64,000 nt of DNA from Prochlorococcus sp. AG-347-I06 (GTDB lineage Bacteria > Cyanobacteriota > Cyanobacteriia > PCC-6307 > Cyanobiaceae). Made by a program: the position numbers and the translations under genes. The notes under the pieces are model-generated. The model was given only the letters and a program-made list of their open reading frames with translations, searched no databases and was not told the origin of the DNA. This document shows, piece after piece, positions 1,007-58,929 of the stretch; position 1 is the stretch's first letter; each line of letters opens with the position of its first letter. The stretch covers positions 19,791-83,790 of the forward strand of contig QCBM01000005.1 of assembly GCA_003281605.1 (NCBI GenBank). The letters are read 5' to 3'.

Positions 1007-1064
1007 TTTAGTAAAATTGTCCAAATGCTGTTAATCTTGCATAATAGCTTCCATTTTACCTCTT

Positions 1065-1289
1065 ATGGCTGAAACAAAATTATTACCCAAAATCGGTAGT
1101 AAAATCAAAATTAACATTAACAAAGTAAAAGATAGATTACCAGCTAAATTAATCGATCAAATATCCTCAAGTCCTAAAGCCGTAATAACAGGCTATAAAA
1201 TGACAGACGGCAGAAGTATTGGAATCACTGCAAAATTTCAGAATGGTGAGCAAAATTGGTTTTTCCCAGAAGAAATTGAGAAAGGTTAA
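1065..1289 (+). CDS. Conserved cyanobacterial small protein (DUF2862-like)
   Basis: 74 aa, VKDRLP...GYKMTDG...WFF pattern; usual position between hisF and chlG. Confidence 0.75.
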   Translation: MAETKLLPKIGSKIKININKVKDRLPAKLIDQISSSPKAVITGYKMTDGRSIGITAKFQNGEQNWFFPEEIEKG

Positions 1290-1297
1290 AGAAAAAA

Positions 1298-4016: not shown

Positions 4017-4025
4017 ATTATATTT

Positions 4026-14303: not shown

Positions 14304-14308
14304 TTTTT

Positions 14309-14358
14309 CGTTCACCTTCATTTGAGGGCGCAGTTCGAGTCATACCATGGAACGGGGG
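14309..14358 (+). ncRNA. Glutamine-II riboswitch (Downstream-peptide motif)
   Basis: CGTTC...GAACG outer stem, CCTTC-ATTT-GAGGG inner stem, GCGCAGTTCGAGTC...CCATGGAACGGGG pattern; sits upstream of a DUF4278-like gene. Confidence 0.85.
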
Positions 14359-14382
14359 ATGGCCGTGTTGTCACATCGAAAC

Positions 14383-40796: not shown

Positions 40797-40878
40797 GGGT
40801 CGGTGCCCGAGTGGTTAAAGGGGGCGGACTGTAAATCCGCTGGCTCTGCCTACGTTGGTTCAAATCCAACCCGGCCCA
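40797..40878 (+). tRNA. tRNA-Tyr(GTA)
   Basis: GGGTCGG/CCGGCCC acceptor stem, CTGTAAA anticodon loop, long variable arm, GGTTCAAATCC T arm. Confidence 0.98.
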
Positions 40879-40888
40879 CTTTAAAATT

Positions 40889-40960
<72 letters not shown>

Positions 40961-41088
40961 TGGCCAAAAGCATTGCTACAATAGAAGTTATAAGAAATTA
41001 GTTAAAATTGATTATTAGCCAGATATATCTAGATATGTCGACAATATAGCAATTCTGCACTAATATTTGCACTAATTACACTTTTAAA

Positions 41089-42438
41089 ATGACAAGTGCT
41101 AACAGCACTTCTTGGGAAAAAGAATTAAGAAAAAATATCTGCACTAATTTTGGTCGTGGAATTAGGGTTAATGGCGAAAATAGCGGTAGAACAAAACTTT
41201 TATATGTTTATAACGAAGGGCTAGGTTCTGCCAACAAAAGAACCTCTCAAACCTTACCCATCGAATGGAAGAAAACCTCAGGTATAGAAATCCTAAAAGC
41301 TATCGAATTTATAAAACCATTAATAGTTGAAAAAAACCTAACTCTTAAAGAAGCCACTAGAAGATGGAAAGCTCAATTCATTGGAGAAGCAACGAAACAA
41401 CCTAATAAAAGTTGGAATGATTTCTTATTAATAAGGCCTCTAAATAAAAATGATGCCAACTATGAAAAGGACTTAAAAGTTTATCTAAATACTGCATCAA
41501 AGGTTGATCAGTTCATGCAAACCAAACAAGGTTTAACAAGTAAAACTGAAAAAGATTGGGCTAGAAGAATTAGTAGATTCTTAGAAGAAATGAATAATAA
41601 TCCCTCTCCAAATACAGGAGTTGAACTTATAAAGAAATTATCGGATAAATACCTTATTGATATAGAACCTGATGAGAGGAAAAGATATATCAATGCTTGG
41701 TGTGAGATTTTAAAGTATGGAATCGAAAGACATTCACAGAACGAAAAAAGATGGCAACCGCCAAGCGAAGACTATAGAAAAGAACTAATTGGAAAATCTA
41801 ATAGGACTAAACAAGATAAATTAACTCCATATATAGAGGAGCATGATTTACTTAGATTATTAGATGATCTTGAATCAAGAGATTCTTCATTATTTCTAGC
41901 AGTTGGCTTAATTTCTATTTTTGGCTTAAGGCTTTCTGAACTTGCAGTTCTTAGAGCTGTAGATGGCAAACTATATGTTGGTAATATCAAAAATAATATA
42001 AACACAAAAGCAAAAAAGGAAGATAGAAGAGTTTTTCCTATGGATCTTTTGGCGAGGAAAAACCTCGGCCAAAACCTTATAGAACTATTCGAATCAAAAA
42101 AGATTACATTACCGATGCCAGTCTTAAATCAAATAGAAATGGTAAAAGATAAAAATAAATATGGTGATGTTGGTCAATCACTAAGGCAATTAATTGAAAG
42201 GAATAAGGTATGGAGAGAAATAATTAAAACTAACCCTGAAATAACACCTTATAGTTTGAGACATAGATATGCCCATCAATGTCATAAGGGTTCCACTATC
42301 CCAATATCAGTAAAAGATGCGGCGGCGGCAATGGGTCATTCTGTTGAAACTCATAATTCTTTTTATGGTTCTTACACAACGGAACTTAGCTTAGAAAAAG
42401 CATTTGAAAGACATTTAAAAAACAGGATTGAGGTTTAG
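41089..42438 (+). CDS. Tyrosine recombinase/integrase
   Basis: GLRLSEL (catalytic R), YSLRH, MGHS and HNSFY (catalytic Y). Confidence 0.92.
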   Translation: MTSANSTSWEKELRKNICTNFGRGIRVNGENSGRTKLLYVYNEGLGSANKRTSQTLPIEWKKTSGIEILKAIEFIKPLIVEKNLTLKEATRRWKAQFIGEATKQPNKSWNDFLLIRPLNKNDANYEKDLKVYLNTASKVDQFMQTKQGLTSKTEKDWARRISRFLEEMNNNPSPNTGVELIKKLSDKYLIDIEPDERKRYINAWCEILKYGIERHSQNEKRWQPPSEDYRKELIGKSNRTKQDKLTPYIEEHDLLRLLDDLESRDSSLFLAVGLISIFGLRLSELAVLRAVDGKLYVGNIKNNINTKAKKEDRRVFPMDLLARKNLGQNLIELFESKKITLPMPVLNQIEMVKDKNKYGDVGQSLRQLIERNKVWREIIKTNPEITPYSLRHRYAHQCHKGSTIPISVKDAAAAMGHSVETHNSFYGSYTTELSLEKAFERHLKNRIEV

Positions 42439-46117: not shown

Positions 46118-47063
46118 TTTTAAATACCTCCAAAATTTGGTTTGCTAATTGAATTGCGGAATTTTTTCCGATTCTTTTGATAATTTTTTTTGCGACTACT
46201 GATGCGTTACCTCTTACACCTACATAGCTGTAAGTTCCATACGCTTTAGCAAGTCCTGCTTCTCTTTCTGCTGCTGCTACCGAGGGAATTAAACCTCTTA
46301 AAAGTCTGTCCAAAGTATTAGATACTCTTTCAGTAGAGGTCCCTTTGCTTTTGCATAAAGAGGGGTTATTTTTTAATTTTGTTAACCTGCTTATCAAGCG
46401 AGTTTTACTATCACTTGGAAGTGAGTCTTTATCTTTTAAATAACTACTCGATGCTTCAAAGAGATTTGTTTGTACTGGGGCATCTCCTGCTGGTGATGTA
46501 TCTAAGGAATTTAATAATTCCTTTAAACGTTCATGTGCTTTAGACCATTCAGGATCAACTTGTTTCATTAAAGAGAGAAGTGTTTCCCATCCGATCATTT
46601 TGGATTTACCAAATCTAAAATCATCACTTAGCTGCTCCAAAGTATTAGGTTCTTCAGTAGCAATAAGTTCTATTAGATAAGTCACTGCCTCACTTGCATC
46701 TTTAGCTGAAGGTTGATGACCAGTTAAGGTTCTCATCAATTCATCAGGTTCAACGCCAAGACAATCTCTTATCCACTCAACAGCTCTTTTGTATTCCCTT
46801 ACTTCTCTCCTACTTTTGATAGAAGGCATAAAGGCAACTTTTTCCCAAGCTTTTTGCTTGAAACAATCAACTAAGGCAGTTGAAAGTGCTGCTGAATTTT
46901 TAGTAGTCCAGTGCTCTTTGAGTATTTGCGTACTCAGAGTTTTAATTTGTGTATCTCTTGGTAGAGAGGACAACCAGCTTTGAGCTTCAATGGTTGCAGT
47001 TTTTTCGTGTAATGTGTTCACTTTGTTCCTGGGGCTAGGTTTAGATGTAAGCCTTAAGCTCAC
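46110..47063 (-). CDS. Hypothetical protein, translationally coupled to the HNH-helicase
   Basis: 8-bp overlap with the helicase start; GTG at 47063 preceded by GGGAGAG (ORF track starts at TTG 47087). Confidence 0.8.
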   Translation of the reverse strand: MSLRLTSKPSPRNKVNTLHEKTATIEAQSWLSSLPRDTQIKTLSTQILKEHWTTKNSAALSTALVDCFKQKAWEKVAFMPSIKSRREVREYKRAVEWIRDCLGVEPDELMRTLTGHQPSAKDASEAVTYLIELIATEEPNTLEQLSDDFRFGKSKMIGWETLLSLMKQVDPEWSKAHERLKELLNSLDTSPAGDAPVQTNLFEASSSYLKDKDSLPSDSKTRLISRLTKLKNNPSLCKSKGTSTERVSNTLDRLLRGLIPSVAAAEREAGLAKAYGTYSYVGVRGNASVVAKKIIKRIGKNSAIQLANQILEVFKND

Positions 47064-47102
47064 AATCAAATACTCTCCCAAAAGCAACTAAAATATATTT
47101 TT

Positions 47103-47119
47103 TACGTGCGAAAAACCAA
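47103..47119 (-). promoter_or_regulatory. 17-bp motif copy A (TTGGTTTTTCGCACGTA on the minus strand)
   Basis: Exact reverse complement of 49318-49334; upstream of the leftward operon. Confidence 0.75.
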
Positions 47120-47189
47120 TTTTTATGCCAGGATTAGCTTATTAAAATTAAAAAATTTAATTATCAAGTAAATATTTTTTTATCTAAAA

Positions 47190-49316
47190 ATGAATGAGAG
47201 ACTAAGATGTCATATGTTTATTGGAATACCTGCAAGCGGGAAATCAACTCTTGCAAATGAACTGGCGCCATTGATAAATGCAGAGATTTTATCAACAGAC
47301 AAAATTAGAGAAGAACTTTATAAAGACGAAACGATTCAAGGAAATTGGAACGAAATTGAATCTTTACTTCATGAAAGACTTAAAGAATACATAAGACAAA
47401 ATAAGCCAGTTATCCTAGATGCTACTTTTGCAATGAGACCTTGGCGTCTAACAATTACTCAAAATCTTTTATTTGATAAAGAAATTGAATGGATTGGCTG
47501 GTGGTTTAAAACACCATTAGAAATTTGCCTTGAATGGAATCAATTAAGAGAGAGGAAAGTCGATGATCCAGTAATTAAAAGATTTGCGGCAGCCCTCTCA
47601 AATAAAATTTTCTCGCCAGATTTATCTGAAGGTTTTGCAACTTTAATAAATATTGATCCATCATCAACAGAAGATATTACAAAAGAAATTAAAAGCAGAC
47701 TTTCGAATTTAGATAGAAATATTACCCAAAGAAAAAATAAAGATTCAATAAAAGAATTGCACGGATACTCAAAATTATTAGATTTTGAGAGACTTCTATA
47801 TCTAATGCAACTGTTAATTAGATTTCCAGATTTAAGTGCGGATGATAAAAAAACAAAATTAGAAATGGAACAAATATGTAACCCAATACCTCAAGGATCT
47901 ATTGAAAACAAAGCCTCTAAATTTTTAAGTACTTTGCATGGCAGTTGTTATTCTGATATTGAAAAATTACATGATGATCTCAAGTGGCTTGATAAGCAGG
48001 GATTTATTAACCATAAAGAAGCAACAGGTAAGCTTGAGCCGCCTCCTGAAGACAAAAATTTTAATAGAGAACTTGGAGGGCTATCAAGATATTCAGAAAA
48101 AGATGCATTTATTAGAGTCATGTCTTTAATCAGATATATCTTACATAACCCTTTTGATGACAAAAGAATTAAAGATGAAAACAATAAGAAGGGTATTAGT
48201 TTGCACGAACACTATATTTCTAAATTAGAAAATATTTATTTCAAAGAGGAAAGAGATACTCTTAGAAAAGATATTGAAAAAATTCTAACTCCATACGGAT
48301 TTAGGGATAAAAATGATAATACAAGGCATGGTTATGTATTAGGAACTGCAGTTTTATCAAGGAACAGACTTGAAGATATTTTTCAGATTATTGATCAAGC
48401 AAAAAATAAATTAAATGATCCAACCATTTCAAGTGTGCACACTAAATTAAAAGAAAGGTTTAAGTGGGCTGGATTTAATTTAGACAATTATCCAGTCAGA
48501 TCATTTGCAAACAAATCTGTTATTAATCCAACTTTTACAAAAAAAGATTCCTTAGCAGTTGATACAAATACTGAAGAACTTGAAAATGCTATAAAGAATG
48601 GTTTTTTAATTGAAATTGAGTTTTTTAGAAGTGCAGGTAAATTTAACGAAGAAGAAAAAGAAGGTTCTCAAAACAAATTGGTTTGGCCAATCCAACTACT
48701 TTTTAATAATATTGGTTGGTATTTGGCCTATGAAGAAAAAACCTTTAGGGATGAACCTGGTCTTTTAAAAACTGAAAGAATTGATCGTATTGCTCTTAGG
48801 AGAATTGATAACTCAAAAATAAGAAATAGAAAAGATAGAGACAAAGCACTTAGAAAAGTTCAAAAATTGGTAGAAATTTCGGGGAGTATTTATTTTGGTG
48901 AAACTGTTGAAAAACAAATTGCAGTACTAAAAAGTAGTGAAGAAAATATTAAAAAATTACTTATTACAGTTCGCTTCAGAACAACTGAAAAAATATTTCG
49001 CTTTCTTCGAGAAGAACTTCAAAGATATCCCTTAAATCAAATGCGTTTAGCAAAGGGTTCAAAGAAAGTATTTTATGAAAATTGGGAAGAACCAGAAAGT
49101 GGGAACTTTGTACTAGAAATGATTAAAGATGATCCTTACCCATATCCAGTTGAGATAGATTTACCTTCATGGACAGTAAAAAATGATAACGATTTTAGAA
49201 GATGGCTATTAGGTTTTAGAGAGGGAATAATTATTGAAAGTCCTACAGAATTTGTAGAAGAGATTAAGTCAAACATATCAAAACTAGGAGAAATATACAA
49301 AACCAAAAATAATTAA
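47190..49316 (+). CDS. AAA_33/PNK-like P-loop kinase fused to HTH-WYL-WCX domains
   Basis: GIPASGKST, STDKIR and ILDAT; WPIQLLFNNIGWYLAY; FRRWLLGF...IESP. Confidence 0.85.
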   Translation: MNERLRCHMFIGIPASGKSTLANELAPLINAEILSTDKIREELYKDETIQGNWNEIESLLHERLKEYIRQNKPVILDATFAMRPWRLTITQNLLFDKEIEWIGWWFKTPLEICLEWNQLRERKVDDPVIKRFAAALSNKIFSPDLSEGFATLINIDPSSTEDITKEIKSRLSNLDRNITQRKNKDSIKELHGYSKLLDFERLLYLMQLLIRFPDLSADDKKTKLEMEQICNPIPQGSIENKASKFLSTLHGSCYSDIEKLHDDLKWLDKQGFINHKEATGKLEPPPEDKNFNRELGGLSRYSEKDAFIRVMSLIRYILHNPFDDKRIKDENNKKGISLHEHYISKLENIYFKEERDTLRKDIEKILTPYGFRDKNDNTRHGYVLGTAVLSRNRLEDIFQIIDQAKNKLNDPTISSVHTKLKERFKWAGFNLDNYPVRSFANKSVINPTFTKKDSLAVDTNTEELENAIKNGFLIEIEFFRSAGKFNEEEKEGSQNKLVWPIQLLFNNIGWYLAYEEKTFRDEPGLLKTERIDRIALRRIDNSKIRNRKDRDKALRKVQKLVEISGSIYFGETVEKQIAVLKSSEENIKKLLITVRFRTTEKIFRFLREELQRYPLNQMRLAKGSKKVFYENWEEPESGNFVLEMIKDDPYPYPVEIDLPSWTVKNDNDFRRWLLGFREGIIIESPTEFVEEIKSNISKLGEIYKTKNN

Positions 49317-49317
49317 T

Positions 49318-49334
49318 TTGGTTTTTCGCACGTA
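49318..49334 (+). promoter_or_regulatory. 17-bp motif copy B (TTGGTTTTTCGCACGTA)
   Basis: Runs into TAGAAT (49333-49338, -10-like) upstream of the rightward operon. Confidence 0.75.
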
Positions 49335-49371
49335 GAATATTTTTTTTTAATAAAATTTTGAGATTCTAAGG

Positions 49372-49866
49372 ATGTCTCACATTAATCCAATGACATCCAA
49401 CAACAAATTCAACAGCTCTGAAAATGATCACCCTGAAAATCAGGGAGACTTTCAAAGCAGCAATCCAAATGTTCCTAATTCTTATTTTGAATTACTTGCC
49501 ATGCAAGGCGGAGTTAATACAAAAACAAAGAACATTAACGAAATTCAGGATCTACCTGAATTAATTCCAGTTATAGAAAACTGTCTTAACTTAATTGCTC
49601 GTACTAAGGAGAAAAGTATTCGCAAACTAAATGAGAATATGCGACTTCTTGATGAGTTAAAAATTATCGAATCTAAGCGGTTTCAAAAAATGAGGCATAT
49701 TAATTCTCATTTAATTGATGAAGAAATTCATGAGCTTATGAAGGACCAACATTATCTTGATAAATTAATTCAACTACTTGATATGAGTGATTGCAATCTG
49801 CATCGATTCATACCCCAATTAATTGATATTGAAAAAGTACTTAAAAACCTAAACGCGGAGATTTAA
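49372..49866 (+). CDS. Hypothetical protein (orphan A); start may be ATG 49390
   Basis: Helical C-terminus; N-terminal motif shared with the next gene. Confidence 0.75.
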   Translation: MSHINPMTSNNKFNSSENDHPENQGDFQSSNPNVPNSYFELLAMQGGVNTKTKNINEIQDLPELIPVIENCLNLIARTKEKSIRKLNENMRLLDELKIIESKRFQKMRHINSHLIDEEIHELMKDQHYLDKLIQLLDMSDCNLHRFIPQLIDIEKVLKNLNAEI

Positions 49867-49870
49867 CCTA

Positions 49871-50329
49871 ATGACAAACAACAAAAACAATGATGAGATC
49901 AAAAGCACTCATCCCGAAGCCTTTGAAGATATAAAGGTTAGCGATTCTGTTCCTAATTCTTATAAAGAACTTTTAGAACTTCAAAAACCAAAGATTGAAT
50001 CTATTGATGATCTTGTAAGTGAAGGCAAAATTGATCCTGAAAAAGCTAAATTTTTAAAGCTATGTACAGAAACTTTTCAATCAGTTCTTGATCTTTTAAA
50101 TAAATTAAAATCTAGTCCTGGTCAAGATATCTTTATTGCAACTATGCTTATTCAAAGAGTTTACTTATTTAATAAAACTTACTTAGAAAAAGCGCAAAAA
50201 AATAAAGAGTTATCAGAACATGAGTTTAATAACTTATCGGAAAGTAATGCCAAATTAAAATGCATATTTCATATGCTCGTTCCGGGAGATGGAGAACTTG
50301 GCGAAAATGGACTCAATTTTACTGTTTAA
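49871..50329 (+). CDS. Hypothetical protein (orphan B)
   Basis: 4 nt after orphan A; shares HPE...VPNSYxELL. Confidence 0.75.
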   Translation: MTNNKNNDEIKSTHPEAFEDIKVSDSVPNSYKELLELQKPKIESIDDLVSEGKIDPEKAKFLKLCTETFQSVLDLLNKLKSSPGQDIFIATMLIQRVYLFNKTYLEKAQKNKELSEHEFNNLSESNAKLKCIFHMLVPGDGELGENGLNFTV

Positions 50330-50341
50330 GGAGGGAAGTAA

Positions 50342-51388
50342 ATGACGAACTCAAAATTAAACAATCCGGGTATTATTTATTTCGTGCAAGAAAAAGATCT
50401 TCTCGGATACAGCACTCCTAATTACGTAAAAATTGGCTTAGTTAAAAGCAATGAGATTGGGCGATCAGGAGAGGATAGAAAGGATGAACACCAAACAGGA
50501 AATCCTAGACCTCTCTACATAGCCCACTCAATTACAACTAAAGCAAGTGTTTCAAAATTAGAAAGTTTAATACACCAAAAACTTTCGCTTCACAGGCACA
50601 GAGGTGAGTGGTTTGTAAAACCAAATGGAGAAATAGATCCCTTCATTAAAGAATCAAATCTTATAAATGAACAACTTCAAGATCAATTAAAAAATGATCT
50701 TAAAATTGAAGAACTAAATTCTCAAGTTAGTTCAGGTAAAACCACAAAACCCTCTTCTGAAGCTCAAGACATTCACAATGAATTGCTTAGAGTTATTAAA
50801 GAAAAAAAAGAAATCGAAACTCAAAAGAAAATTATTGAACTAAAGCTAAGACTATTATCTGGTAGTTCAAATAATTCTATTGAGGGAGTATTTCAATGGA
50901 TTTTAAAAAGAGAATCACAAAGATTTGATGCCAAGAATTTTGAAAAAGAAAATCCTGAATTATTTGAAAAATATGCAAAAGAATCTCAAAGCTCAATCTT
51001 TAGAATCCAAAAAATAAATTCCAATATCAATAAAGAATTAATAGAAGAATTAAATAGTAAAGTTAGCCATTTAGATGCCTCTGAAAAGAGCACAAAAATT
51101 GCAAGAAGCAATGAAGCAGAGGATCTTCACAGAGAGTGGCTTACTTTGCTTTCACAACAACAACCTCTTGAACTTAAGAAAGAAAATCTTGTAAATCAAC
51201 TTAAAATATTATGTGATAATAATTCAGGCCTTGAGAATATATGCTCTTGGAAAAGAGAACCAATTAAAAAAATTAAGAAAAGTGATCTATCAGAATTAGA
51301 TAAAGATATAGTTAATAAATATCTTGTAAAGGTAAAATCAACTTCCTCCTTTATGTTAAATACCTTTAGAGCATATAAATTTAAGTAA
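50342..51388 (+). CDS. GIY-YIG superfamily (T5orf172/MUG113-like) nuclease with coiled-coil tail
   Basis: IIYFVQE...VKIG...QTGNP...LESLIHQKL...RGEWF; SD GAGGGAAG. Confidence 0.85.
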   Translation: MTNSKLNNPGIIYFVQEKDLLGYSTPNYVKIGLVKSNEIGRSGEDRKDEHQTGNPRPLYIAHSITTKASVSKLESLIHQKLSLHRHRGEWFVKPNGEIDPFIKESNLINEQLQDQLKNDLKIEELNSQVSSGKTTKPSSEAQDIHNELLRVIKEKKEIETQKKIIELKLRLLSGSSNNSIEGVFQWILKRESQRFDAKNFEKENPELFEKYAKESQSSIFRIQKINSNINKELIEELNSKVSHLDASEKSTKIARSNEAEDLHREWLTLLSQQQPLELKKENLVNQLKILCDNNSGLENICSWKREPIKKIKKSDLSELDKDIVNKYLVKVKSTSSFMLNTFRAYKFK

Positions 51389-51401
51389 GGAGTATATTCT
51401 A

Positions 51402-54380
51402 ATGGCAAAGGAAAATTTTCCATATCAACTTTTCATTGTTGGAGCAGAATATTCCAGAAATGATATTAATCAAAGACTTGTCAATTCAAAAGTAAGTCAG
51501 CAGAGTGGAGTTTCAAGTTTTGCGGATTCATTAATTCTTTTTGCAACATTAGAAAAAGAAGGAAGACCTGAAGAAATACAGTATAAAGATTTTTTTAAAT
51601 TTAAAAACAAAATATTTAGTGAATTAAAGAAAAAAAAAGGAACTTCTGTTTTACCTGTAGAAGGCTATTTCCCAATATTTGAAAAGGGAGAAATTAAATT
51701 TTTCTGGGAAAGTCAAAATCCTTCAGGAAACTTTGGAACCCCAGAAAAACCATTGCTTTCCAAATTAATTAAAGGAGAGCTTAAAGGTTATTTATTTGCT
51801 CGAATTGAGGAGAAAACAAAAGGTAAAAGTAATCGATTTTTATACTGTGGTTCGATAGAAGCAGAAAGTTATGACGACAAAGCAAATGGAGAAAGACCTT
51901 TTGGAGTTAAATTTTCTTGTAATGATATAGGGCCAAAGCATGTAAAAAATGATTTAAAGATTTTACTGGAATGGCGTCCAAAAGATATTTCGACAATTAC
52001 TAAAGCAGAAGAACTTGCTTCTTCTTGTTTGGCAAATGAAAAAGTAAAACTTAAGGAAATAGAGAATGAGCTTTTTTGGAGTGGTTTTGAAACTCCAGAA
52101 TTGGCAACAAAGATATTACTAGAAAAATTTAATAAATACTCACTAGAACCTTCACCATATATATTTACGAAACTTGTCTGTAGACACTTTTCTGGTATCA
52201 ATAAATCCTCTTTTTTTACGCCACAAGTCTTAGAAAATTTTATTTGCAACTTTCTAAAAAATTTAAAAATAAAATCTGTTCTTGATCCATCAATGATAAA
52301 TGGAAGTACTTTATATAAAATTTCAAAAGAATTAAAACCTCAAGAGATTTATGGGTATGAAATAAATAAAGACCTCTTTAGACTATCTGAAGTTTTTAAT
52401 AAAAATGCCACGCTTAAAAATGAATATTTCCCAATTAATCAAGACTTAGAAAAAAGATTTGATTTAATAGTTTCTTTTCCTCCGATGATGATGAGGCATC
52501 CCTCAGTAAATAAAGAGATAATAATAAATGATAAAAAACTTGCATTTAATCTTCACAGAGAGACTGAAATCATATTTTCTTCTTTAAGAAATTTATCTGA
52601 TAATGGTTTAGCATTATTTATTGTTTCTCCAGGCTTTTTATTAAAAACTAGAAGTAGAAATATTTTTGAATTTATAAAAGATATTGGATTCAGTTTAGAA
52701 GGAATTTTTTATATCCCTGCTGGGACTTTCAAACCTTTTTCTGGAATTGAAGGCAGATTGGTAATAATTAAGAAAAAAATTCAATCTAAATTTATATTTG
52801 AAGGACAATTATCTTTTAATAAAGACAGAGATCAAAAATTAATAAATAATTTTTATGAATCTAAAGCTGATGAAGATCCTGAATTAGGTTTTTTAAGAGA
52901 ATTTGAAAGTAAAACTGATTTAAGAGAAGCTATCTTCCTTGAAAAGTTATCGCTAATTAATAAAAATATTGATATTGAGGTTAAACATTTAGAAGAAATA
53001 TCTGAAAGTATTTTCTATGCGACTTTAGAGAAAATAATAGAACATCAAAATTCTATATTTATTTTTCTCAATGGAAATAATAATGTATATGAATATGTAG
53101 CTGACATTGATACCAAAAAATTTGATTCTGGAATTAGGAATCAATCTATAGCGCAAGTAGTTATAAACCCTAAAAGAATTAATAAAAAAGTTTTAGTAAA
53201 AATCCTACAAAGTAAAAGAGGTAAACTTGCTTTTCAAGCTTTAACATCTTCTTTTGCTTCTCCTGGAAGAACAAGAATTTCTTTAAGTTCAATAGGTAAA
53301 TTACTTTTATGTATACCTGATAAAAAAGAGCAAGATCAATTAGAAATAATCGATCAAAAATTATTCGATATTAAATTTAAATTAAGTAACTTCGAAAATA
53401 ATCTTTGGGAAAAAATAGATCAACCCAAAGAATCTATTAAAGAATTTAATAAGATTATTAATCAAAAATATCAAAAGGAAACTAAAGATGATTTAGATAT
53501 AAGAATACTTCCCTTTCCATTGGCAAGTATTCTTCAAACAGTAAAAAGTTTTAATGGTATTCCTATAAAAATGTCATTACATATTGAATATTTCTTTGAG
53601 GCTCTTAGTCAATTTTTGGCAATTTATATAATGAGTGGTTTTTATATTAACGAAGAAGAATTTAATTCAATATGGACAGAAGTCTCAAATTTTCTAAAAG
53701 AAAAAAATCATAATATTGGCTCAAGTACTTTTGGTACCTGGAATATAATTTTTAACCTACTAACGAAAAAAATAAACCAAGATATAAAGGAGGAAGAAAG
53801 TATGAAAGAAGTTTGGCTCAGTAGATTAGCAATAGAAAGCGAAGAATTTTTAAATGTATTAACCGGTAAAAAATTACTTGGGATTTTAATGAGGGCAAAC
53901 AGATTTAGAAATATGTGGAGAGGACATTCAGGAGCAATTGGAGATGATAATGCAAAAGAGAGATACAACACATATAACGAAATGGTAAAAGAAGTTTTAA
54001 ACTTATTTAGAAATTTTTGGATTGAGTCGCCTCTTGTGATTCCTGGAGAAAGTACATATAAAGACGGAAAGTTTGATTATTTTTGCCAATCTGCAATGGG
54101 AGTTACAATGCCCTTACCAAGAAATAAATACAGTTTAAAACAACCTCTTGAAGATGGAATGATGCATATAGTTTCTACTGTAAGTGGGAAATCATGTAAA
54201 TTACTCCCATTAATTAAATTTGGAGAAAGCCCAAGCAAAGTTGATAATGCATGTTATTTCTATAACAGGCGTGATAATGACCAATCACAAAGATGGATTT
54301 CTTATCACAATGAAAATAAACCTGAGAGACCATTTAGTGATCCTGAAGTAAATGCATTACTAGATAAATTAAGTAACTAA
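51402..54380 (+). CDS. DUF3427-like + degenerate N6-adenine methyltransferase + TRD-like + HEPN-like fusion
   Basis: YSRNDI...FFWESQ...FLYCG; FFTP, VLDPSMINGS, YGYEIN, DLIVSFPPM; LLLCIPDKKEQ; RNMWRGH. Confidence 0.7.
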   Translation: MAKENFPYQLFIVGAEYSRNDINQRLVNSKVSQQSGVSSFADSLILFATLEKEGRPEEIQYKDFFKFKNKIFSELKKKKGTSVLPVEGYFPIFEKGEIKFFWESQNPSGNFGTPEKPLLSKLIKGELKGYLFARIEEKTKGKSNRFLYCGSIEAESYDDKANGERPFGVKFSCNDIGPKHVKNDLKILLEWRPKDISTITKAEELASSCLANEKVKLKEIENELFWSGFETPELATKILLEKFNKYSLEPSPYIFTKLVCRHFSGINKSSFFTPQVLENFICNFLKNLKIKSVLDPSMINGSTLYKISKELKPQEIYGYEINKDLFRLSEVFNKNATLKNEYFPINQDLEKRFDLIVSFPPMMMRHPSVNKEIIINDKKLAFNLHRETEIIFSSLRNLSDNGLALFIVSPGFLLKTRSRNIFEFIKDIGFSLEGIFYIPAGTFKPFSGIEGRLVIIKKKIQSKFIFEGQLSFNKDRDQKLINNFYESKADEDPELGFLREFESKTDLREAIFLEKLSLINKNIDIEVKHLEEISESIFYATLEKIIEHQNSIFIFLNGNNNVYEYVADIDTKKFDSGIRNQSIAQVVINPKRINKKVLVKILQSKRGKLAFQALTSSFASPGRTRISLSSIGKLLLCIPDKKEQDQLEIIDQKLFDIKFKLSNFENNLWEKIDQPKESIKEFNKIINQKYQKETKDDLDIRILPFPLASILQTVKSFNGIPIKMSLHIEYFFEALSQFLAIYIMSGFYINEEEFNSIWTEVSNFLKEKNHNIGSSTFGTWNIIFNLLTKKINQDIKEEESMKEVWLSRLAIESEEFLNVLTGKKLLGILMRANRFRNMWRGHSGAIGDDNAKERYNTYNEMVKEVLNLFRNFWIESPLVIPGESTYKDGKFDYFCQSAMGVTMPLPRNKYSLKQPLEDGMMHIVSTVSGKSCKLLPLIKFGESPSKVDNACYFYNRRDNDQSQRWISYHNENKPERPFSDPEVNALLDKLSN

Positions 54381-54422
54381 ATCTAGTGATACAAATTTAC
54401 TTCTTGCTGAACATTATTTTCT
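54329..54422 (+). repeat. 94-bp direct repeat, copy 1 (hairpin 54345-54403)
   Basis: 87/94 identical to 57546-57639 by manual alignment. Confidence 0.95.
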
Positions 54423-54432
54423 TTAATGCTAT

Positions 54433-57390
54433 CTACAGTGATGAATTTATATTTAGGATTAGAAGTCTCCTGGCAAGTGAATGATTTGTATAGTATTTAT
54501 AAACATCAGCATTCAATTTTATTTTATTAGAAAACCTAAAATAATTTGGTAATTTCCCTTTTGTACTTTCATTCCTACTAGCATAAAAGTCATATGCAGA
54601 ACTTGTTATGCTGTAAGTCTTATTATCATTATCTTCAAAAATAGCTGATTTTTTATCCAATCCTGCATAATTTTTAAATTTTAAAATTACATTTTTCCTC
54701 TCATACCATCTTGTATTTAATATTTCTAGTTTATTGTAGTTGGATATTTGTTTAAGCTCTTTAAGCAAAAAGATAATATCTTCAAAAAATTCTTTAGTTG
54801 TTGTCACTTTAATAAGCTGTTCATTCAGCTTTGAACCACTATATTTTTTTTGTTGATAATAATAACTTTCATTATATGCCTGTGAAAAATAATTTTTATT
54901 AAGCAGGAGAACCATTTTACAAAAATCTTCTTTGAAAAATAGATTAACTGTTTTACTTAAAGATTTTCTTGTAAACGCATTAACAGAAGAAATTAACCAC
55001 CACATAAGACTATTTCTGTTTGATGAGTAATAAGGTGAATTTCCATCAATATCTAGATGTTCATAACATTTCAAAAGTAGATCACTAATATTGTCAAAAT
55101 ATTCTTGGTTAATGTTTTCACCTACCATTTCATTCATAAGGTGCCGTGCATGTCGGTTATATGCATCTGCTATAAGTGTCAAAAACAAAGATTTACTTGT
55201 ATCTTTTCTTTCTGACCAATCTTCAGTGACTTTATAGACATCCTCAAATTTATTTTGCCTGATCAATAGTCTTGCAAATGCAGTCATAAATTTAGAGTAT
55301 GGTAATGAGTCAGGAAGAGGGGTATCTAGCGAATCAAAAAATCTGAATCCATATTCACAAGCTCTACTATCTTTAAGTGCATCAAATCTATAAAAAAGCG
55401 TTAATAAAGCATTAGGATCATTTCCATCAGCTGCAAGCTGTAAGTGCTTTATACATTGAAGTTGATCATTAAATTCTTGATAAATCAAACCTATAAGACG
55501 ATAAACAGCAGGTGGGACTGATTGAGCTCTATTTATATCTTTAAAATCCTCAAGATCTTTCAATGCATCTCTTAGTTTTGCAAATGCAACTTCTTTTAAA
55601 TCGTTAGAAACAAGGTCTTCATCTTTAATTTTATAAAAATGTCCTAATGCACCAATTGCCTCATTACAAATCACCCTACAAGTATCATCAACCTGTGTTT
55701 CAGGTCTTAGAAAGCTGAATTTCATCTGATTTGACCAACTATTATTTTCAGAATTTAGTATCGAAATATTCTTATTAATTTGATCATCCTTATAAATATT
55801 CAACCTAAATCTAAGATCTTCATTTAAAGGATATATGCTTAAATAAGATCTAAAGTTATCATTCAATTTTATACAATCCATAGAAGATGTACCCCTGAAG
55901 GCCAATCCCAAGTCCTCAATTTCTGCAATGGATTCAGTAACACTGTCAATATCAACTGAAAGTCTCTTATTAATATCTATTTTTCTAGATTCTCCTAAAA
56001 CAAAAAGTACCTCAAGACAGTCTTTACTTACATTAGATAATGAACCTACAAGTTTTGTAAATGAGAATGAAATAATACTATCTGCACCACATTGAACTGA
56101 TTCAATTAAGCTTGTATTATTTTTCTTTTGGTATCCAATTGCATTTTTTATTGCAAGTGGGTTACAAAATAATTTATTAGAGTAGTCTGAAGCTTCTTCG
56201 TATGAAATTTTTTTTCCTAATTTATCTAAATAAACTTTTTGGAATAATTTTGCAGCACTTTTAAGTTCTAAAGGTCCTAGTGAAATAATACTGCTAGATT
56301 CTCTAATTCTTATTCTTGAAGTTATTATAATTTTCCAATCTCTTGGTAACTCATTTTCAAATTCAGAAAACACCTTATAAATATCACTGGACAGTGTCTC
56401 AAGATTATCTACCCATAATAAAAATCTGTAGTTTCCAAAGGTATTTAAGAAGTCTTCCCAAAGTGAATTAATATCTTTTCCATCTTCAAAGTTAAATACT
56501 TCTTGAAAAATATTATTTTCGCTAAATTCTGTATTAGCGAATTTATAACCTTGCAATAATTGCTCTTTAATTCCCTCCATTGTTAAATTAATAATATCTT
56601 TTCTGACTACACCCTCCTCTAAATATTCCTCTTTCAGTGATGAGTATAAAATACAATCAATTTCTTTAGAATCTTCATCAGAAAACTTTAATTCATTTAA
56701 AACAGACAATGTTAAAGCTGTTTTACCTGTTCCTCCAGCACCAAAAATACTTACACTTGGTTTTCTTGGATTTAATAAATAATTTTTTATTTCCTCTGAA
56801 AGTTTTTCTCTCCCGATAATTTCATCGTAATCAGGCATTGGTAAATTATTCGGAATTTCAGTTAATTTACTCTCTTCTATTTCAACTAGATCAAGGTTCC
56901 CTTTTTTTGCTGCATAATATCTTTCAATTACATTTATAAAACCCAGTTGTTTAATTACAGGATCAAGTGCTAAAGCTTGTACTCTTAGCCAATGAACTGG
57001 GTGATATTCATTCCCAGGGTGAGCGAAAGATTGAGATCTTGTTTTATAAATTTGTAAAACATTTATCAATTGATCTAACCTTTCATAGTATTTTTGTTTC
57101 GAACTTCCCTGTGAAACTTGTTTCGCTAAAGATGGCAATTGAGAAAGATTTGATTTTCTGATTAACTCTTCTTTATTTCTTGGGTTCCTTCTATATGTTT
57201 CTGAGAAATATCTTTTACATTTTAGGCCTGCTCCAGATTCAGTATCAACCGAATCTATATTAGAAATTATTTTATCTACCAAACTTTTCTCTAGAGAACC
57301 TAGAACCATTTGTATTCTAGTTGCATCTAGGAATTGATCATCTTGATCAAACGAGTAGATCTCTTCATTTTCTACTGCGCTTAAAGTCAC
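54433..57390 (-). CDS. NLR-like STAND protein: HEPN-like N-terminus, NB-ARC NTPase, helical C-terminus
   Basis: RSQSFAH (Rx5H); PNNLP...IIGRE; GAGGTGKT; LWVDNLET; IITSR; CNPLAI; TPR-like helices. Confidence 0.8.
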   Translation of the reverse strand: MTLSAVENEEIYSFDQDDQFLDATRIQMVLGSLEKSLVDKIISNIDSVDTESGAGLKCKRYFSETYRRNPRNKEELIRKSNLSQLPSLAKQVSQGSSKQKYYERLDQLINVLQIYKTRSQSFAHPGNEYHPVHWLRVQALALDPVIKQLGFINVIERYYAAKKGNLDLVEIEESKLTEIPNNLPMPDYDEIIGREKLSEEIKNYLLNPRKPSVSIFGAGGTGKTALTLSVLNELKFSDEDSKEIDCILYSSLKEEYLEEGVVRKDIINLTMEGIKEQLLQGYKFANTEFSENNIFQEVFNFEDGKDINSLWEDFLNTFGNYRFLLWVDNLETLSSDIYKVFSEFENELPRDWKIIITSRIRIRESSSIISLGPLELKSAAKLFQKVYLDKLGKKISYEEASDYSNKLFCNPLAIKNAIGYQKKNNTSLIESVQCGADSIISFSFTKLVGSLSNVSKDCLEVLFVLGESRKIDINKRLSVDIDSVTESIAEIEDLGLAFRGTSSMDCIKLNDNFRSYLSIYPLNEDLRFRLNIYKDDQINKNISILNSENNSWSNQMKFSFLRPETQVDDTCRVICNEAIGALGHFYKIKDEDLVSNDLKEVAFAKLRDALKDLEDFKDINRAQSVPPAVYRLIGLIYQEFNDQLQCIKHLQLAADGNDPNALLTLFYRFDALKDSRACEYGFRFFDSLDTPLPDSLPYSKFMTAFARLLIRQNKFEDVYKVTEDWSERKDTSKSLFLTLIADAYNRHARHLMNEMVGENINQEYFDNISDLLLKCYEHLDIDGNSPYYSSNRNSLMWWLISSVNAFTRKSLSKTVNLFFKEDFCKMVLLLNKNYFSQAYNESYYYQQKKYSGSKLNEQLIKVTTTKEFFEDIIFLLKELKQISNYNKLEILNTRWYERKNVILKFKNYAGLDKKSAIFEDNDNKTYSITSSAYDFYASRNESTKGKLPNYFRFSNKIKLNADVYKYYTNHSLARRLLILNINSSL

Positions 57391-57545
57391 AAAATTCTAA
57401 ACATTTTTTTTATGATAATCACTTTTTTTTTCAGTATCAAAAATTGTTATTTTCTAAAAATATTTATTTAGATATTAGATCAAAGACTTTAAATCATCTC
57501 TTGAAAAATAATCTTTTATTTTCTACAGCAAAACTAACCGACGAT

Positions 57546-57639
57546 ACCATTTAGGGGTCCTGAAGTAAATGCATTACTAGATAAATTGAGTAACTAAATC
57601 TAGTAATACAAATTTACTTCTTGCTGCATATTATTTCCT
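57546..57639 (+). repeat. 94-bp direct repeat, copy 2 (hairpin 57562-57620)
   Basis: 3217 bp downstream of copy 1; non-coding here. Confidence 0.95.
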
Positions 57640-57793
57640 CTGGCAATATAAGTAACCGACTCCAAAATTGGCACATCAACATAAGATGTTTCCCTTAATG
57701 GCCAAAAAGAACTGAAGGATTTGAGATCAGGGGATTTAATATTTTTCTTTCGGTTCAGCTGTTAAAAAGCTCCTACACACATACTGATAGACA

Positions 57794-58576
57794 ATGAAAT
57801 TTATTAAGAGACTCAGGTCGCTGCCGGGCGATTCTCTGAGCGTTATACGCCGCACACCGCCACTTGTTTTTGCAATGGCTGTATTATCACTTGGTGGTTT
57901 TATTGGGGCATCAACCGTTCTCGTAAGAGGTTTTCGGATGGTTGAAAATTCAATCACTGTTACTGGTGCTAGTACGGAAAGTTTTGAAAGTGATATTGCC
58001 AAATGGTCCGTTCAGGTCAGGGCTACTGGTAAAACTCAAATTGACTCTTTTAATAAGCACAAAGAGTCAATGAAAAAGACTATAAATTTCCTGAAAGCCA
58101 ATGGAATTGAAGATGGCATTAAACAAGAAGTTTATCTTGGACCAGCGAGCATCAAGGAATATGAAACCAAGCATCCGAAGACAAATGAAATCATAAGAAC
58201 GGAATGGATTACCTATCAGAGTATAGAAATACAAAGCAATGATGTTTATCGCATTCAAAAGACCCACAGCAAGATAACTGAACTTCTTGGTGATGGTGTT
58301 TTAGTAAGACCAAGTTCACCAGAATTTACATATTCAAAGCTTGCTGATAAAAGAGTAGACATGCTCGCCAAGGCTGCAAAAGATGCACGTATCAGAGCTG
58401 AAGCGATTGCTCTTCAGGCAGGATCTGAAGTGGGAGGTTTGAAGAAAGTGAACACTGGAGTATTCCAAATCACAGTTCCTAATTCCACTAGAGTAAGTAG
58501 CTGGGGATCTTATGATACTACAACAATCAAGAAAGATATTACTGCTGTAATGGGGGTAACTTTCGCTGTTAAATAA
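57794..58576 (+). CDS. SIMPL (DUF541) domain periplasmic protein
   Basis: ITVTGAS, AAKDARIRAEAIA, GVFQI and KDITAV motifs; N-terminal TM. Confidence 0.88.
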   Translation: MKFIKRLRSLPGDSLSVIRRTPPLVFAMAVLSLGGFIGASTVLVRGFRMVENSITVTGASTESFESDIAKWSVQVRATGKTQIDSFNKHKESMKKTINFLKANGIEDGIKQEVYLGPASIKEYETKHPKTNEIIRTEWITYQSIEIQSNDVYRIQKTHSKITELLGDGVLVRPSSPEFTYSKLADKRVDMLAKAAKDARIRAEAIALQAGSEVGGLKKVNTGVFQITVPNSTRVSSWGSYDTTTIKKDITAVMGVTFAVK

Positions 58577-58673
58577 TTGAATTAGGGAGTCTTCTTTTTA
58601 CCTTTGAGGATCATCAATAAAGGTAATCCAATAAGCATTAGACTCCCATCAATTAACAAAAAAATGTTCAGGT

Positions 58674-58865
58674 TCATTTATCCTTACCTTCATTAATTTC
58701 AAAATATAGAGGGATACCTTTTTTTACTGGATCTTTCTTCATATCTTCCATTTCTTTCCTTAATTTCTTGTAGTATGCAACTTCCTCAGGATCATCAGAG
58801 CCAAGACCATAACCCATCGTTGCTGCTAGATAAATCCTATGCATTCTGTAAGAACTTAAAGTCAT
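58674..58865 (-). CDS. Small conserved hypothetical protein
   Basis: HRIYLAATMGYGLGSDDPEEVAYYKKLRKEM resembles a recurrent Prochlorococcus island protein. Confidence 0.65.
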   Translation of the reverse strand: MTLSSYRMHRIYLAATMGYGLGSDDPEEVAYYKKLRKEMEDMKKDPVKKGIPLYFEINEGKDK

Positions 58866-58929
58866 ACTGAGATCATAAACAATTAAATTTTAAATCAGAA
58901 AAAAATTATTTTTAAATCCTTCTATCAAA

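What the first reader, a model, noticed from the sequence alone, without database searches (positions are those of the whole stretch)
54329..57639. NLR-like gene packaged as a 3217-bp cassette between 94-bp hairpin-forming direct repeats
Seen: two 94-bp copies (87 identical) enclose exactly one gene and its upstream region. Each holds an imperfect 59-bp palindrome, GAAGTAAAT-GC-ATTACTAGAT-loop-ATCTAGT(A/G)AT-ACAA-ATTTACTTC, with a 2-nt bulge and a mismatch. Copy 1 encodes the last residues and stop of the 992-aa gene (PFSDPEVNALLDKLSN*), so excision would leave that gene intact. Inference: a cassette-exchange slot for defence genes, reminiscent of folded single-strand recombination sites but lacking the attC RYYYAAC/GTTRRRY ends. 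The element's own integrase, or RecA, could be the catalyst.
Basis: partly seen in the sequence, partly recalled or inferred. Interest (0 to 1): 0.85.

Follow-up and report, generated by a model that had tools for sequence, protein, structure and literature searches.

The report
Duplicated island border flanking a STAND gene
The two hairpin repeats around this NLR-like defence gene are real, but they look like a scar of two gene swaps at the edge of a Prochlorococcus genomic island, not a dedicated cassette-recombination site.

Summary
Two copies sit 3217 bp apart (87/94 identical). Each forms a 59-nt imperfect hairpin. They enclose one 985-aa STAND/NLR-like gene and its promoter. Ten or more independent Tara metagenome contigs show the same layout, so it is not an assembly artefact.

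The repeat is composite, not a recombination site. Its left half is the last codons and 3' UTR of the 992-aa N6-methyltransferase gene. Its right half is the first ~40 nt of the conserved flank that marks the distal border of the tRNA-Thr island in every Prochlorococcus genome examined. Copy 2 is a decayed relic of that methyltransferase end. Other genomes carry relics of about 45 nt (L027) and 455 nt (L031) at the same border.

The same STAND module (98.3-98.6% identical) also occurs with one hairpin (L043) or none (L032, L005). The copy-1/STAND joint lies in a 12-nt microhomology, ATTATTTTCTTT. The two copies differ 7-16%, against about 1.5% for the cargo, and keep their diagnostic differences in all contigs.

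Single-repeat alleles do exist, so the slot is variable. Ordinary homologous plus microhomology-mediated recombination explains it. No attC boxes, linked integrase or circle junction were found.

The parts
54298..54424 (+). Repeat copy 1 (hp1): real 3' end and stop of the 992-aa methyltransferase gene, its 3' UTR, and a second copy of the first ~42 nt of the island-border flank
   Evidence: an X2 contig carries hp1-specific bases up to 54424 and then continues into flank
54345..54403 (+). Hairpin 1 (stop codon lies in the loop). The inner stem has a T-G pair, so it is fully paired only as + strand RNA
54413..54424 (.). ATTATTTTCTTT: 12-nt microhomology at the hp1/STAND-module joint, shared by the border flank of the single-repeat allele and by the STAND module end in hairpin-free contexts
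54413..57465 (-). STAND module (gene plus about 75 nt of promoter region), the unit shared at 98.3-98.6% with L005, L032/L033 and L043 in other contexts
54433..57390 (-). 985-aa STAND/NLR-like NTPase gene; this lineage lacks the T5orf172 partner gene that overlaps the stop codon in its 59-74% relatives
57412..57440 (-). Promoter-like site of the STAND gene (TTGATA, 17 nt spacer, TATCAT)
57466..57523 (.). 58-nt filler of unknown origin between the STAND module and the relic; 2-3 times deeper than STAND in four metagenomes, so it also occurs in other contexts
57515..57641 (+). Repeat copy 2 (hp2): decayed in-frame relic of a methyltransferase 3' end (to 57599), plus the native start of the conserved flank
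57562..57620 (+). Hairpin 2
57600..57793 (+). Start of the conserved flank, i.e. the distal border of the tRNA-Thr island. Homology with 7 species-representative genomes and with L003/4, L027 and L031 begins at 57548-57604
51402..54380 (+). 992-aa N6-adenine methyltransferase-like gene (defence-type), preceded by a T5orf172 gene at 50342-51388
57794..58576 (+). SIMPL/DUF541 gene, first gene of the conserved flank
40888..40961 (+). tRNA-Thr(GGT), the proximal anchor of the island
41089..42438 (+). Tyrosine recombinase next to the tRNA, followed by an AAA_25/DnaB-like gene at 43027-44121: tycheposon-type hallmark genes

Best explanation
The window is a Prochlorococcus genomic island anchored at tRNA-Thr(GGT). 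It is of the tycheposon-associated kind, and its distal border lies at about 57600. In one island lineage the last gene was the 992-aa methyltransferase, so its 3' end abutted the border. The gene's last codons (GAAGTAAAT..ATTACTAGAT) pair with its 3' UTR and the first flank bases (ATCTAGTRAT..ATTTACTTC). That gives a hairpin spanning the stop codon, most likely an mRNA 3'-end or terminator-type structure. This functional assignment is inferred, not shown.

Two separate replacement events then produced the repeat.

Event R: in one genome, incoming DNA carrying the STAND module replaced the methyltransferase gene except for its last ~68 coding nt and the hairpin. That left relic-hp2-flank.

Event L: DNA of that type recombined with a genome that still had methyltransferase-hp1-flank. 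It recombined homologously on the flank side. On the other side it joined illegitimately through the 12-nt microhomology ATTATTTTCTTT, which is shared by the end of the STAND module and the recipient's flank 42 nt beyond the border. This is the pattern of homology-facilitated illegitimate recombination.

The product has the border region twice, as two diverged alleles, around the STAND gene. The repeats are therefore a by-product. RecA-type recombination between them could still delete the gene, but no evidence of that was found.

Shown: the composite nature of the repeat, the border, the relics, the alternative contexts, the microhomology and the single-repeat alleles. Inferred: the order and mechanism of the events, the route of DNA entry, and the role of the hairpin.
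For: The flank begins at 57600-57604 in 7 species-representative Prochlorococcus genomes and in L003/4, with unrelated sequence to its left. Other methyltransferase homologues end in GAAGTAAATACACTCTTAGATAAG and continue into other downstream sequence. Relics of the methyltransferase 3' end at the same border have different lengths: L027 about 45 nt, lying after a 783-aa gene; the window about 68 coding nt; L031 455 nt, lying directly after tRNA-Thr. The STAND module is 98.3-98.6% identical in L005, L032/L033 and L043, where it has no hairpin or only hp2. The junction sequences share ATTATTTTCTTT. hp1 and hp2 differ by 7/94 to 21/127, while the cargo differs by only ~1.5% between contexts. So the copies were already different alleles when they were joined. 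The hp1/hp2 diagnostic bases are fixed in every two-copy contig that shows them, with no hybrids. The X2 single-repeat contig carries hp1 bases and a flank allele different from hp2's, as expected for a recipient-type allele and not for a pop-out product. Depths fit a rare STAND variant: flank 700-4900, methyltransferase 3' end 30-290, STAND 7-18.
Against: The STAND module ends at the same nucleotide (within 3 nt) in three different right-hand contexts and two left-hand contexts. Random illegitimate joints would not obviously do that; I attribute it to trimming back to the promoter edge and stop codon in a streamlined genome, which is an assumption. L043, the predicted intermediate, could be a metagenome assembly chimera across the shared 3-kb gene. 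The hairpin (61/63) is better conserved between the copies than the adjacent flank (17/21), so it is under some constraint whose nature was not tested. Prochlorococcus is not known to be naturally transformable, so the DNA entry route is unknown. The single-repeat evidence from read archives rests on short, low-depth contigs (depth 3-5).
Confidence: 0.62

Rival explanations
1. RecA-dependent cassette. A 3.2-kb circle carrying the STAND gene plus one copy of the ~95-nt repeat integrates into, and excises from, the methyltransferase 3' end by homologous (Campbell-type) recombination. The repeats would then act as a portable homology patch that keeps the methyltransferase gene intact.
For: Direct repeats enclose exactly one gene with its own promoter. 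Single-repeat alleles exist. The copies are diverged alleles, as expected if one came from an incoming molecule.
Against: The hp1/STAND joint still needs a prior illegitimate event at the 12-nt microhomology, and that event alone explains the structure. The same module occurs without the repeat. No back-joint (576xx to 544xx) was listed in eight metagenome runs. No hybrid repeats appear among the two-copy contigs. The X2 single-repeat contig has hp1 bases right up to the last shared nucleotide and a different flank allele, which is unlike a crossover product.
Confidence: 0.17
2. Site-specific cassette system. The folded hairpins are attC-like single-strand recombination sites cut by the island's tyrosine recombinase or another enzyme.
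For: The hairpins are imperfect, with an asymmetric internal loop, and are better conserved than their surroundings. A tyrosine recombinase is present in the island.
Against: No RYYYAAC/GTTRRRY boxes on either strand. Only two copies exist in 64 kb. The left-arm 21-mer is absent from JGI metagenome contigs, and the loop plus right-arm pattern hit only one contig there. The arms are coding sequence and universal flank. Relic and cargo boundaries differ between genomes. The recombinase sits 13 kb away beside tRNA-Thr and recurs in L001, where no hairpin repeat was found. hp1 has a T-G pair that is a mismatch in DNA and in the bottom strand.
Confidence: 0.03
3. The STAND gene is a discrete mobile module with defined ends, moved by an unknown mechanism that targets short AT-rich cores (ATTATTTT-like). 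The hairpin repeat is incidental to its landing site.
For: The module ends are identical in the window, L005, L032 and L043 contexts: left ATTATTTTCTTTAA, right ..TTATTTTCTAAAAATA. A 9-nt direct repeat TTATTTTCT lies at or near both ends, and ATTATTTT is present at both kinds of left target.
Against: A simple core-recombination model predicts right-hand flanks that are not observed (my check of the sequences printed). There are no terminal inverted repeats and no transposase or recombinase in the 3-kb unit. No joint skipping 54422 to 57456 appeared in eight runs. Only 2-3 independent contexts are known, and homologous exchange inside the 3-kb gene can reshuffle left and right contexts.
Confidence: 0.12
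4. In-situ duplication (target-site duplication or slippage), or an assembly artefact.
For: None beyond the existence of the repeat.
Against: The copies differ 7-16% whereas the cargo differs ~1.5% from its copies elsewhere. The layout is reproduced in more than ten independent assemblies. The copies share no 31-mer that could collapse a k=31 assembly graph: the longest exact shared run is 30 nt, by my count of the alignment.
Confidence: 0.01

Closest known systems
Prochlorococcus genomic islands remodelled by tycheposons (Hackl et al., bioRxiv 10.1101/2020.12.28.424599)
   Same: The island is anchored at tRNA-Thr(GGT), one of the seven target tRNAs. A tyrosine recombinase and a DnaB-like replication gene lie next to the tRNA. 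The cargo is variable, with remnants of earlier occupants. The paper separates mobile 'element genes' from 'island genes' that move by co-transfer or recombination.
   Different: The repeats here are not partial tRNA att sites. No partial tRNA-Thr copy is present in the window. The STAND gene sits at the distal border, far from the integrase, and behaves as an 'island gene'.
Homology-facilitated illegitimate recombination (one homologous anchor plus a microhomology joint; described for Acinetobacter and Streptococcus pneumoniae; from my own knowledge)
   Same: Foreign DNA is inserted with one side in conserved homology (the flank) and the other joined at a short microhomology (12 nt here). The result is a duplication of recipient sequence.
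   Different: Inferred from sequence only. Prochlorococcus is not known to be transformable, and the delivery route (vesicles, transduction, tycheposon co-transfer) is unknown.
Integrative elements that insert in the 3' end of a gene and supply a replacement end (e14 and phage 21 in icd; tRNA-targeting islands; from my own knowledge)
   Same: A duplicated, diverged gene 3' end flanks the insert, so the host gene stays intact. The distal copy is a non-functional relic.
   Different: The 3.2-kb insert has no integrase. The insert occurs elsewhere without the duplicated end, and relic lengths vary between genomes.
Integron gene cassettes and attC sites
   Same: Imperfect hairpin-forming repeats bracket a single gene in a variable array-like slot.
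   Different: No R/L boxes, no IntI/attI/Pc platform and only two copies. The arms are derived from coding sequence and a conserved flank, and the cargo carries its own promoter.
Bacterial STAND/NLR-like antiviral ATPases (Avs family and relatives)
   Same: The cargo protein has a helical N-terminal domain, a P-loop NB-ARC-type NTPase and a long helical repeat region. Its fold matches NLR resistosomes, Avs3, MalT and Apaf-1/CED-4. Relatives are paired with a T5orf172 nuclease-like gene.
   Different: No PADLOC model matches. Pfam hits are below the curated cut-offs. This lineage has lost the adjacent T5orf172 partner. A defence role has not been tested.

Membership tests
Integron attC / gene cassette | Conserved R''/R' core boxes (RYYYAAC ... 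GTTRRRY) at the ends of the site | tested here: not met
   No match on either strand of either copy
Integron attC / gene cassette | Adjacent intI integrase with attI and Pc, and an array of cassettes each ending in an attC | tested here: not met
   The only tyrosine recombinase is at 41089-42438 beside tRNA-Thr. It gives a weak generic XerA/integron-integrase match (31 bits against a cut-off of 220) and no Pfam hit. Only two hairpin copies exist in 64 kb.
Integron attC / gene cassette | Imperfect hairpin with extrahelical bases that mark the recombining strand | tested here: inconclusive
   The hairpin has an asymmetric 2-nt/4-nt internal loop, but nothing shows that it is used.
Tycheposon-associated Prochlorococcus island | Located at one of seven target tRNA/tmRNA genes | tested here: met
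   tRNA-Thr(GGT) at 40888-40961; the target list is in the paper
Tycheposon-associated Prochlorococcus island | Tyrosine or large serine recombinase plus a replication module next to the tRNA | tested here: met
   Recombinase at 41089-42438; AAA_25/DnaB_C protein at 43027-44121
Tycheposon-associated Prochlorococcus island | Element flanked by a partial copy of the tRNA (att repeat) | tested here: not met
   No second copy of the tRNA-Thr 3' part with up to 3 mismatches. Partial or extra copies do occur in L012, L014 and L016.
Homology-facilitated illegitimate recombination product | Microhomology at the illegitimate joint | tested here: met
   12 nt (ATTATTTTCTTT) are shared by the module end (L005, L032) and the single-repeat flank allele
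Homology-facilitated illegitimate recombination product | Extended homology on the other side serving as the anchor | tested here: met
   The flank from 57600 onward is 81-93% identical across genomes
Homology-facilitated illegitimate recombination product | Uptake of linear foreign DNA by the recipient | not testable with these tools
   No experimental access
Intrinsic (Rho-independent) terminator | G+C-rich stem with a short loop, followed by a U run | tested here: not met
   The consensus scan does not flag either hairpin. The stems are A+T-rich, the loop is 15 nt, and the tail CTTGCTGAACATTATTTTCTTT becomes T-rich only 10-14 nt after the stem (my reading of the sequence).
STAND / NLR-like NTPase (cargo gene) | NB-ARC-type P-loop NTPase followed by helical and winged-helix domains and a repeat sensor region | tested here: met
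   Weak AAA_16/NB-ARC hits at residues 191-260. The model has pLDDT 82.5. Fold matches to NLR resistosomes, Avs3, MalT, CED-4 and Apaf-1 have E 1.7e-9 to 1e-6.

The most novel reading that the evidence does not exclude
Defence-gene modules in Prochlorococcus islands, here the STAND gene with its promoter, have nucleotide-exact ends and are moved between sites by an undescribed mechanism that joins short AT-rich cores (ATTATTTT-like). Structured island borders such as this hairpin would then serve as preferred landing or breakage points.
Probability: 0.1. Interest if true: 0.7.

Novelty: new member of a known kind. Interest (0 to 1): 0.3.

Why it matters
This is a worked example, resolved to the nucleotide, of how a streamlined marine cyanobacterium swaps defence genes at an island border without any dedicated recombination site. 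It shows relics of previous occupants, a microhomology joint, and a duplicated border that could later mediate loss of the gene. It also warns that hairpin-bearing direct repeats around a single gene need not be attC-like sites. Separately, the cargo belongs to a Prochlorococcus STAND/NLR-like family that PADLOC does not recognise and that is rare in the field: about 0.2-3% of the flank depth in eight metagenomes. If the residual oddity (identical module ends in several contexts) proved general, it would point to an unrecognised route of cassette shuffling in the ocean's most abundant phototroph.

Tried and rejected
- The left-arm 21-mer is absent from JGI metagenome contigs. The loop plus right-arm pattern gave one contig, L031.
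- The right-arm scan of viral contigs gave only chance hits. Protein-based scans of viral contigs for the STAND gene and the methyltransferase found nothing. blastn against phage records found nothing.
- Rfam gave no family at either hairpin or in 54-62 kb.
- The consensus terminator scan did not flag the hairpins.
- I considered that the flank has its own conserved terminator hairpin, replaced in this lineage. I dropped it because flank-only folds are weak and inconsistent (z -0.1 to -2.0).
- PADLOC has no model for the STAND protein. phmmer against PDB matched only the P-loop.
- The window's 348-aa T5orf172 protein is not a detectable relative of the 452-aa STAND partner.
- Exact look-up of the window's methyltransferase found nothing on record.
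- No source was found for the 58-nt filler 57466-57523.
- A core-recombination model on TTATTTTCT was rejected because the predicted right-hand flanks are not observed (sequences).
- No circle junction or hybrid repeat was found.
- No raw-read runs were available, only assembled contigs, so rare excision products could not be sought.
Full report
**Observation**

The repeat finder reports a pair at 54298-54422 and 57515-57639, 3217 bp apart. Identity is uneven:

| Segment | Identical bases |
|---|---|
| 54298-54328 | 18/31 |
| 54329-54340 | 10/12 |
| 54341-54403 (hairpin) | 61/63 |
| 54404-54424 | 17/21 |
| outside the repeat | about 34% (chance level) |

Each arm occurs only twice in the 64-kb window, where shuffles give 0.00-0.01. 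Both copies fold into the described imperfect hairpin: -21.2 and -20.8 kcal/mol as + strand RNA, z -4.2 and -2.7, and -8.9 to -12.6 kcal/mol with DNA parameters. Copy 1 holds the last 16 codons and the stop of the 992-aa gene. Copy 2 keeps the same frame with two amino-acid changes. Between the copies lies one ORF, 54433-57390 on the minus strand, with a promoter-like site at 57440-57412.

**Context**

- G+C is about 31%.
- tRNA-Tyr and tRNA-Thr(GGT) lie at 40797-40961.
- Next to them come a tyrosine recombinase (41089-42438) and an AAA_25/DnaB-like gene.
- Defence-type genes follow: an HNH-helicase, a kinase-WYL protein, a T5orf172 protein, the 992-aa N6-methyltransferase and the 985-aa gene.
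- Beyond them lie a SIMPL gene and pstS.
- The nearest relatives of the DNA are Prochlorococcus single-cell genomes and marine metagenomes.
- tRNA-Thr(GGT) is one of the seven tRNA targets of tycheposons, the integrative elements that remodel Prochlorococcus islands (bioRxiv 10.1101/2020.12.28.424599).

The 985-aa protein is a STAND NTPase. Pfam gives weak AAA_16/NB-ARC hits. An AlphaFold model has mean pLDDT 82.5, and its best fold matches are plant NLR resistosomes, MalT, Avs3, CED-4 and Apaf-1. 'NLR-like' is therefore fair.

**What the repeat is made of**

I scanned one genome per species for the right arm. That returned seven Prochlorococcus genomes (L012, L013, L014, L016, L019, L025, L026). 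In all of them, and in contigs L003/L004, homology with the window starts at 57600-57604 and runs on through the SIMPL gene. Everything to the left differs.

So the outer right arm of the hairpin (ATACAAATTTACTTC) is the first stretch of a conserved flank, which marks the distal border of the island. In L014/L016/L026 another gene stops 3 nt before this border, and in L013 a 758-aa ORF ends 37 nt before it.

The left arm is the coding end of the methyltransferase. Homologues of that gene at 69-80% identity (L027-L030) end in GAAGTAAATACACTCTTAGATAAG or a near variant. They continue into other sequence: a 783-aa gene that overlaps the stop codon in L027, the same reading frame starting right after the stop in L030, or the region downstream of SIMPL in L028/L029.

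The repeat is therefore a composite. It is the junction 'methyltransferase 3' end | island border', present twice.

**Copy 2 is a relic**

Three genomes carry a piece of the methyltransferase 3' end at this border, each of a different length:

| Locus | Relic | Setting |
|---|---|---|
| L027 | about 45 nt, starting at CCTGAAG | after T5orf172, methyltransferase and a 783-aa gene; followed by flank |
| window (copy 2) | about 68 coding nt, upstream part heavily mutated | after the STAND module and the filler |
| L031 (1.1-kb JGI contig) | last 455 nt of the gene | tRNA-Tyr/Thr plus 40 nt, then a short stretch, then relic, weaker hairpin and flank: an almost empty island |

Other metagenome contigs carry less-decayed versions of the window's relic. 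Three different left breakpoints at one border indicate independent replacements or deletions, not cutting at a fixed site.

**The cargo travels without the repeat**

The cluster of STAND proteins at 90% identity or more occurs in several contexts:

| Loci | Layout | Hairpins |
|---|---|---|
| L034-L042, L044 (Tara contigs, more than ten samples) | same as the window, about 98% identical (89.6% for L034, which includes a whole 996-aa methyltransferase) | two |
| L032/L033 (single-cell genome GCA_003280515.1) | same left-hand island as the window (97% over 44624-51388), then a different 965-aa Eco57I-type methyltransferase on the other strand, a 61-aa gene, STAND, a terminator-like segment resembling window 58571-58688, and a 484-aa gene | none |
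| L005 | 61-aa gene side on one end, a third sequence on the other | none |
| L043 | 61-aa gene side joined to STAND, then filler, relic/hp2 and flank | one |

In all of these, homology with the window is 98.3-98.6% and runs from 54413 to 57465-57470. The module ends therefore do not coincide with the repeat. On the right, a 58-nt filler (57466-57523) separates the module from the relic. On the left, only the last 10-12 nt of copy 1 overlap the module.

**The joints**

At the left joint the sequences read:

| Source | Sequence |
|---|---|
| window | ...CTTGCTGAACATTATTTTCTTT\|AATGCTATC |
| hairpin-free module (L032) | ...CAAATTATTTTCTTTAATACTATC |
| 80-nt X2 metagenome contig | exact hp1 bases to 54424, then GGCAATATTAGTAACCGACTC (flank) |

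The module end and the single-repeat flank allele thus share 12 nt, ATTATTTTCTTT. I estimate roughly a 1e-6 chance per alignment position at this base composition. That is the signature of a microhomology joint.

The flank allele in the X2 contig differs from the flank allele next to hp2. It therefore looks like a recipient-type allele and not like a deletion product of the window arrangement.

**Divergence argument**

hp1 and hp2 differ at 7/94 to 21/127 positions. The cargo differs by about 1.5% from its copies in other contexts. With 1.5% divergence about 1.4 differences are expected in 94 nt, and by my Poisson estimate seven or more has a probability below 0.001. The two copies were therefore already distinct alleles when they were brought together.

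That excludes in-situ duplication. It fits recombination between two genomes. The copies also keep their diagnostic bases in every two-copy contig that shows them, with no hybrid:

| Copy | Diagnostic bases |
|---|---|
| hp1 | GTGAT; GAAC..TTTT(C/A)TTT |
| hp2 | GTAAT; GCAT..TTTCCTCT |

So there is no sign of ongoing exchange between the copies.

**Population data**

In eight marine metagenome runs the flank is 640-4900 deep, the methyltransferase 3' end 30-290, and the STAND gene 4-18. The STAND arrangement is thus a rare variant.

One X3 contig joins 54413 to 57631, skipping 3217 bp. Its sequence is of the L031 type. No joint running back from about 57640 to about 54423, as a circle junction would, was listed in any of the runs. 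These are assembled contigs, so rare products would be missed.

**Most likely history and mechanism**

1. An island lineage had the methyltransferase as its last gene. The hairpin spanning its stop codon probably serves as an mRNA 3'-end structure. The T-G pair in hp1 keeps the stem intact only in the + strand RNA. The hairpin is also better conserved than its surroundings. Both are weak arguments. The hairpin is not a canonical terminator.
2. In one genome, a replacement brought the STAND module in and left the last ~68 coding nt plus the hairpin as a relic at the border.
3. That arrangement then recombined with a genome that still had methyltransferase-hairpin-flank. It used the conserved flank as a homologous anchor on one side and the 12-nt microhomology as an illegitimate joint on the other.

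The outcome is the border region in two diverged copies around the STAND gene. I give this model a confidence of 0.62.

**Rivals**

| Rival | Confidence | Main point |
|---|---|---|
| RecA-dependent circle (Campbell-type) | 0.17 | Still needs the illegitimate joint first, and no circle or hybrid repeat was found |
| Discrete STAND module with defined ends | 0.12 | Supported only by the coincidence of ends in 2-3 contexts; a simple core model fails on the observed flanks |
| attC-like site-specific system | 0.03 | Fails on core boxes, copy number, origin of the arms, variable boundaries and lack of a linked integrase |
| In-situ duplication or assembly artefact | 0.01 | Refuted by copy divergence and by independent assemblies |

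**Caveats**

- L043 may be an assembly chimera across the shared 3-kb gene.
- The single-repeat contigs from the read archive are short and shallow. L031 is the solid case.
- The order of the two events cannot be fixed.
- How DNA enters Prochlorococcus cells is unknown.
- The identical right-hand end of the module in three contexts (within 3 nt, about 25 nt upstream of the -35 box) is only provisionally explained, by trimming to functional boundaries in a streamlined genome.

**Verdict**

The 'folded recombination site / integrase cassette' part does not. This is a new, well-resolved example of a known kind of event: a mosaic island border with relics and a microhomology joint. Its interest is modest.

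Noticed in passing
L001 10001-14327; L002 190-4492; L003 305-4616: Relatives of the STAND gene (59-74% nucleotide or protein identity) are followed by a 452-456-aa T5orf172/MUG113 (GIY-YIG-like) gene that overlaps their stop codon by 8 nt, a likely two-gene defence system. The window/L032 lineage has lost this partner cleanly, about 20 nt after the stop.
   Followed up: partly
window 50342-54380; L027 3-5707; L030: T5orf172 (348 aa) and the 992-aa N6-methyltransferase form a conserved pair. In L027 and L030 a third gene (783 aa, no Pfam hit) starts at or immediately after the methyltransferase stop codon. This may be an undescribed three-gene restriction/defence system; the window has the two-gene form.
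   Followed up: partly
window 58571-58912 (63-aa ORF 58674-58865, minus strand): A small gene and its terminator-like downstream segment recur in islands next to different genes: after the methyltransferase stop in L028/L029, beside tRNA-Thr copies in L012/L014, and on both sides of the STAND module in L032. It looks like another recurrent junction segment.
   Followed up: partly
L014 1802-1938 (reverse-complement coordinates); L016 1676-1781; L012 7440-7485: Extra full or partial copies of tRNA-Thr lie near the same border, in inverted orientation in L014 and L016. This suggests past integrations and an inversion in those genomes.
   Followed up: no
L005 about 260-340 and L019 left of the border: A sequence of about 70 nt (TATGTACGGTTTGAGG..TATACGGATAAAGGATCAACAATTGAA..TTGAATATGGTTAAAATA) occurs next to the STAND module in L005 and next to the island border in L019. 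I did not establish its orientation in the two loci, and its nature is unknown.
   Followed up: no
window 57454-57534: The filler between the STAND module and the relic is 2-3 times deeper than the STAND gene in four metagenomes. In run X4 it lies inside a 2962-nt contig that otherwise does not match 54200-57760, so it has another, unidentified native context.
   Followed up: no
window 14306-14363: A Glutamine-II riboswitch aptamer (Rfam RF01704, 63.7 bits), as expected for a marine picocyanobacterium.
   Followed up: no
window 51388/51389 versus L032: Homology between the window and L032 (97%) stops exactly at the T5orf172 stop codon. In L032 a convergent 965-aa Eco57I-type methyltransferase ends 2 nt away, so module joints here fall right at gene ends.
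   Followed up: no
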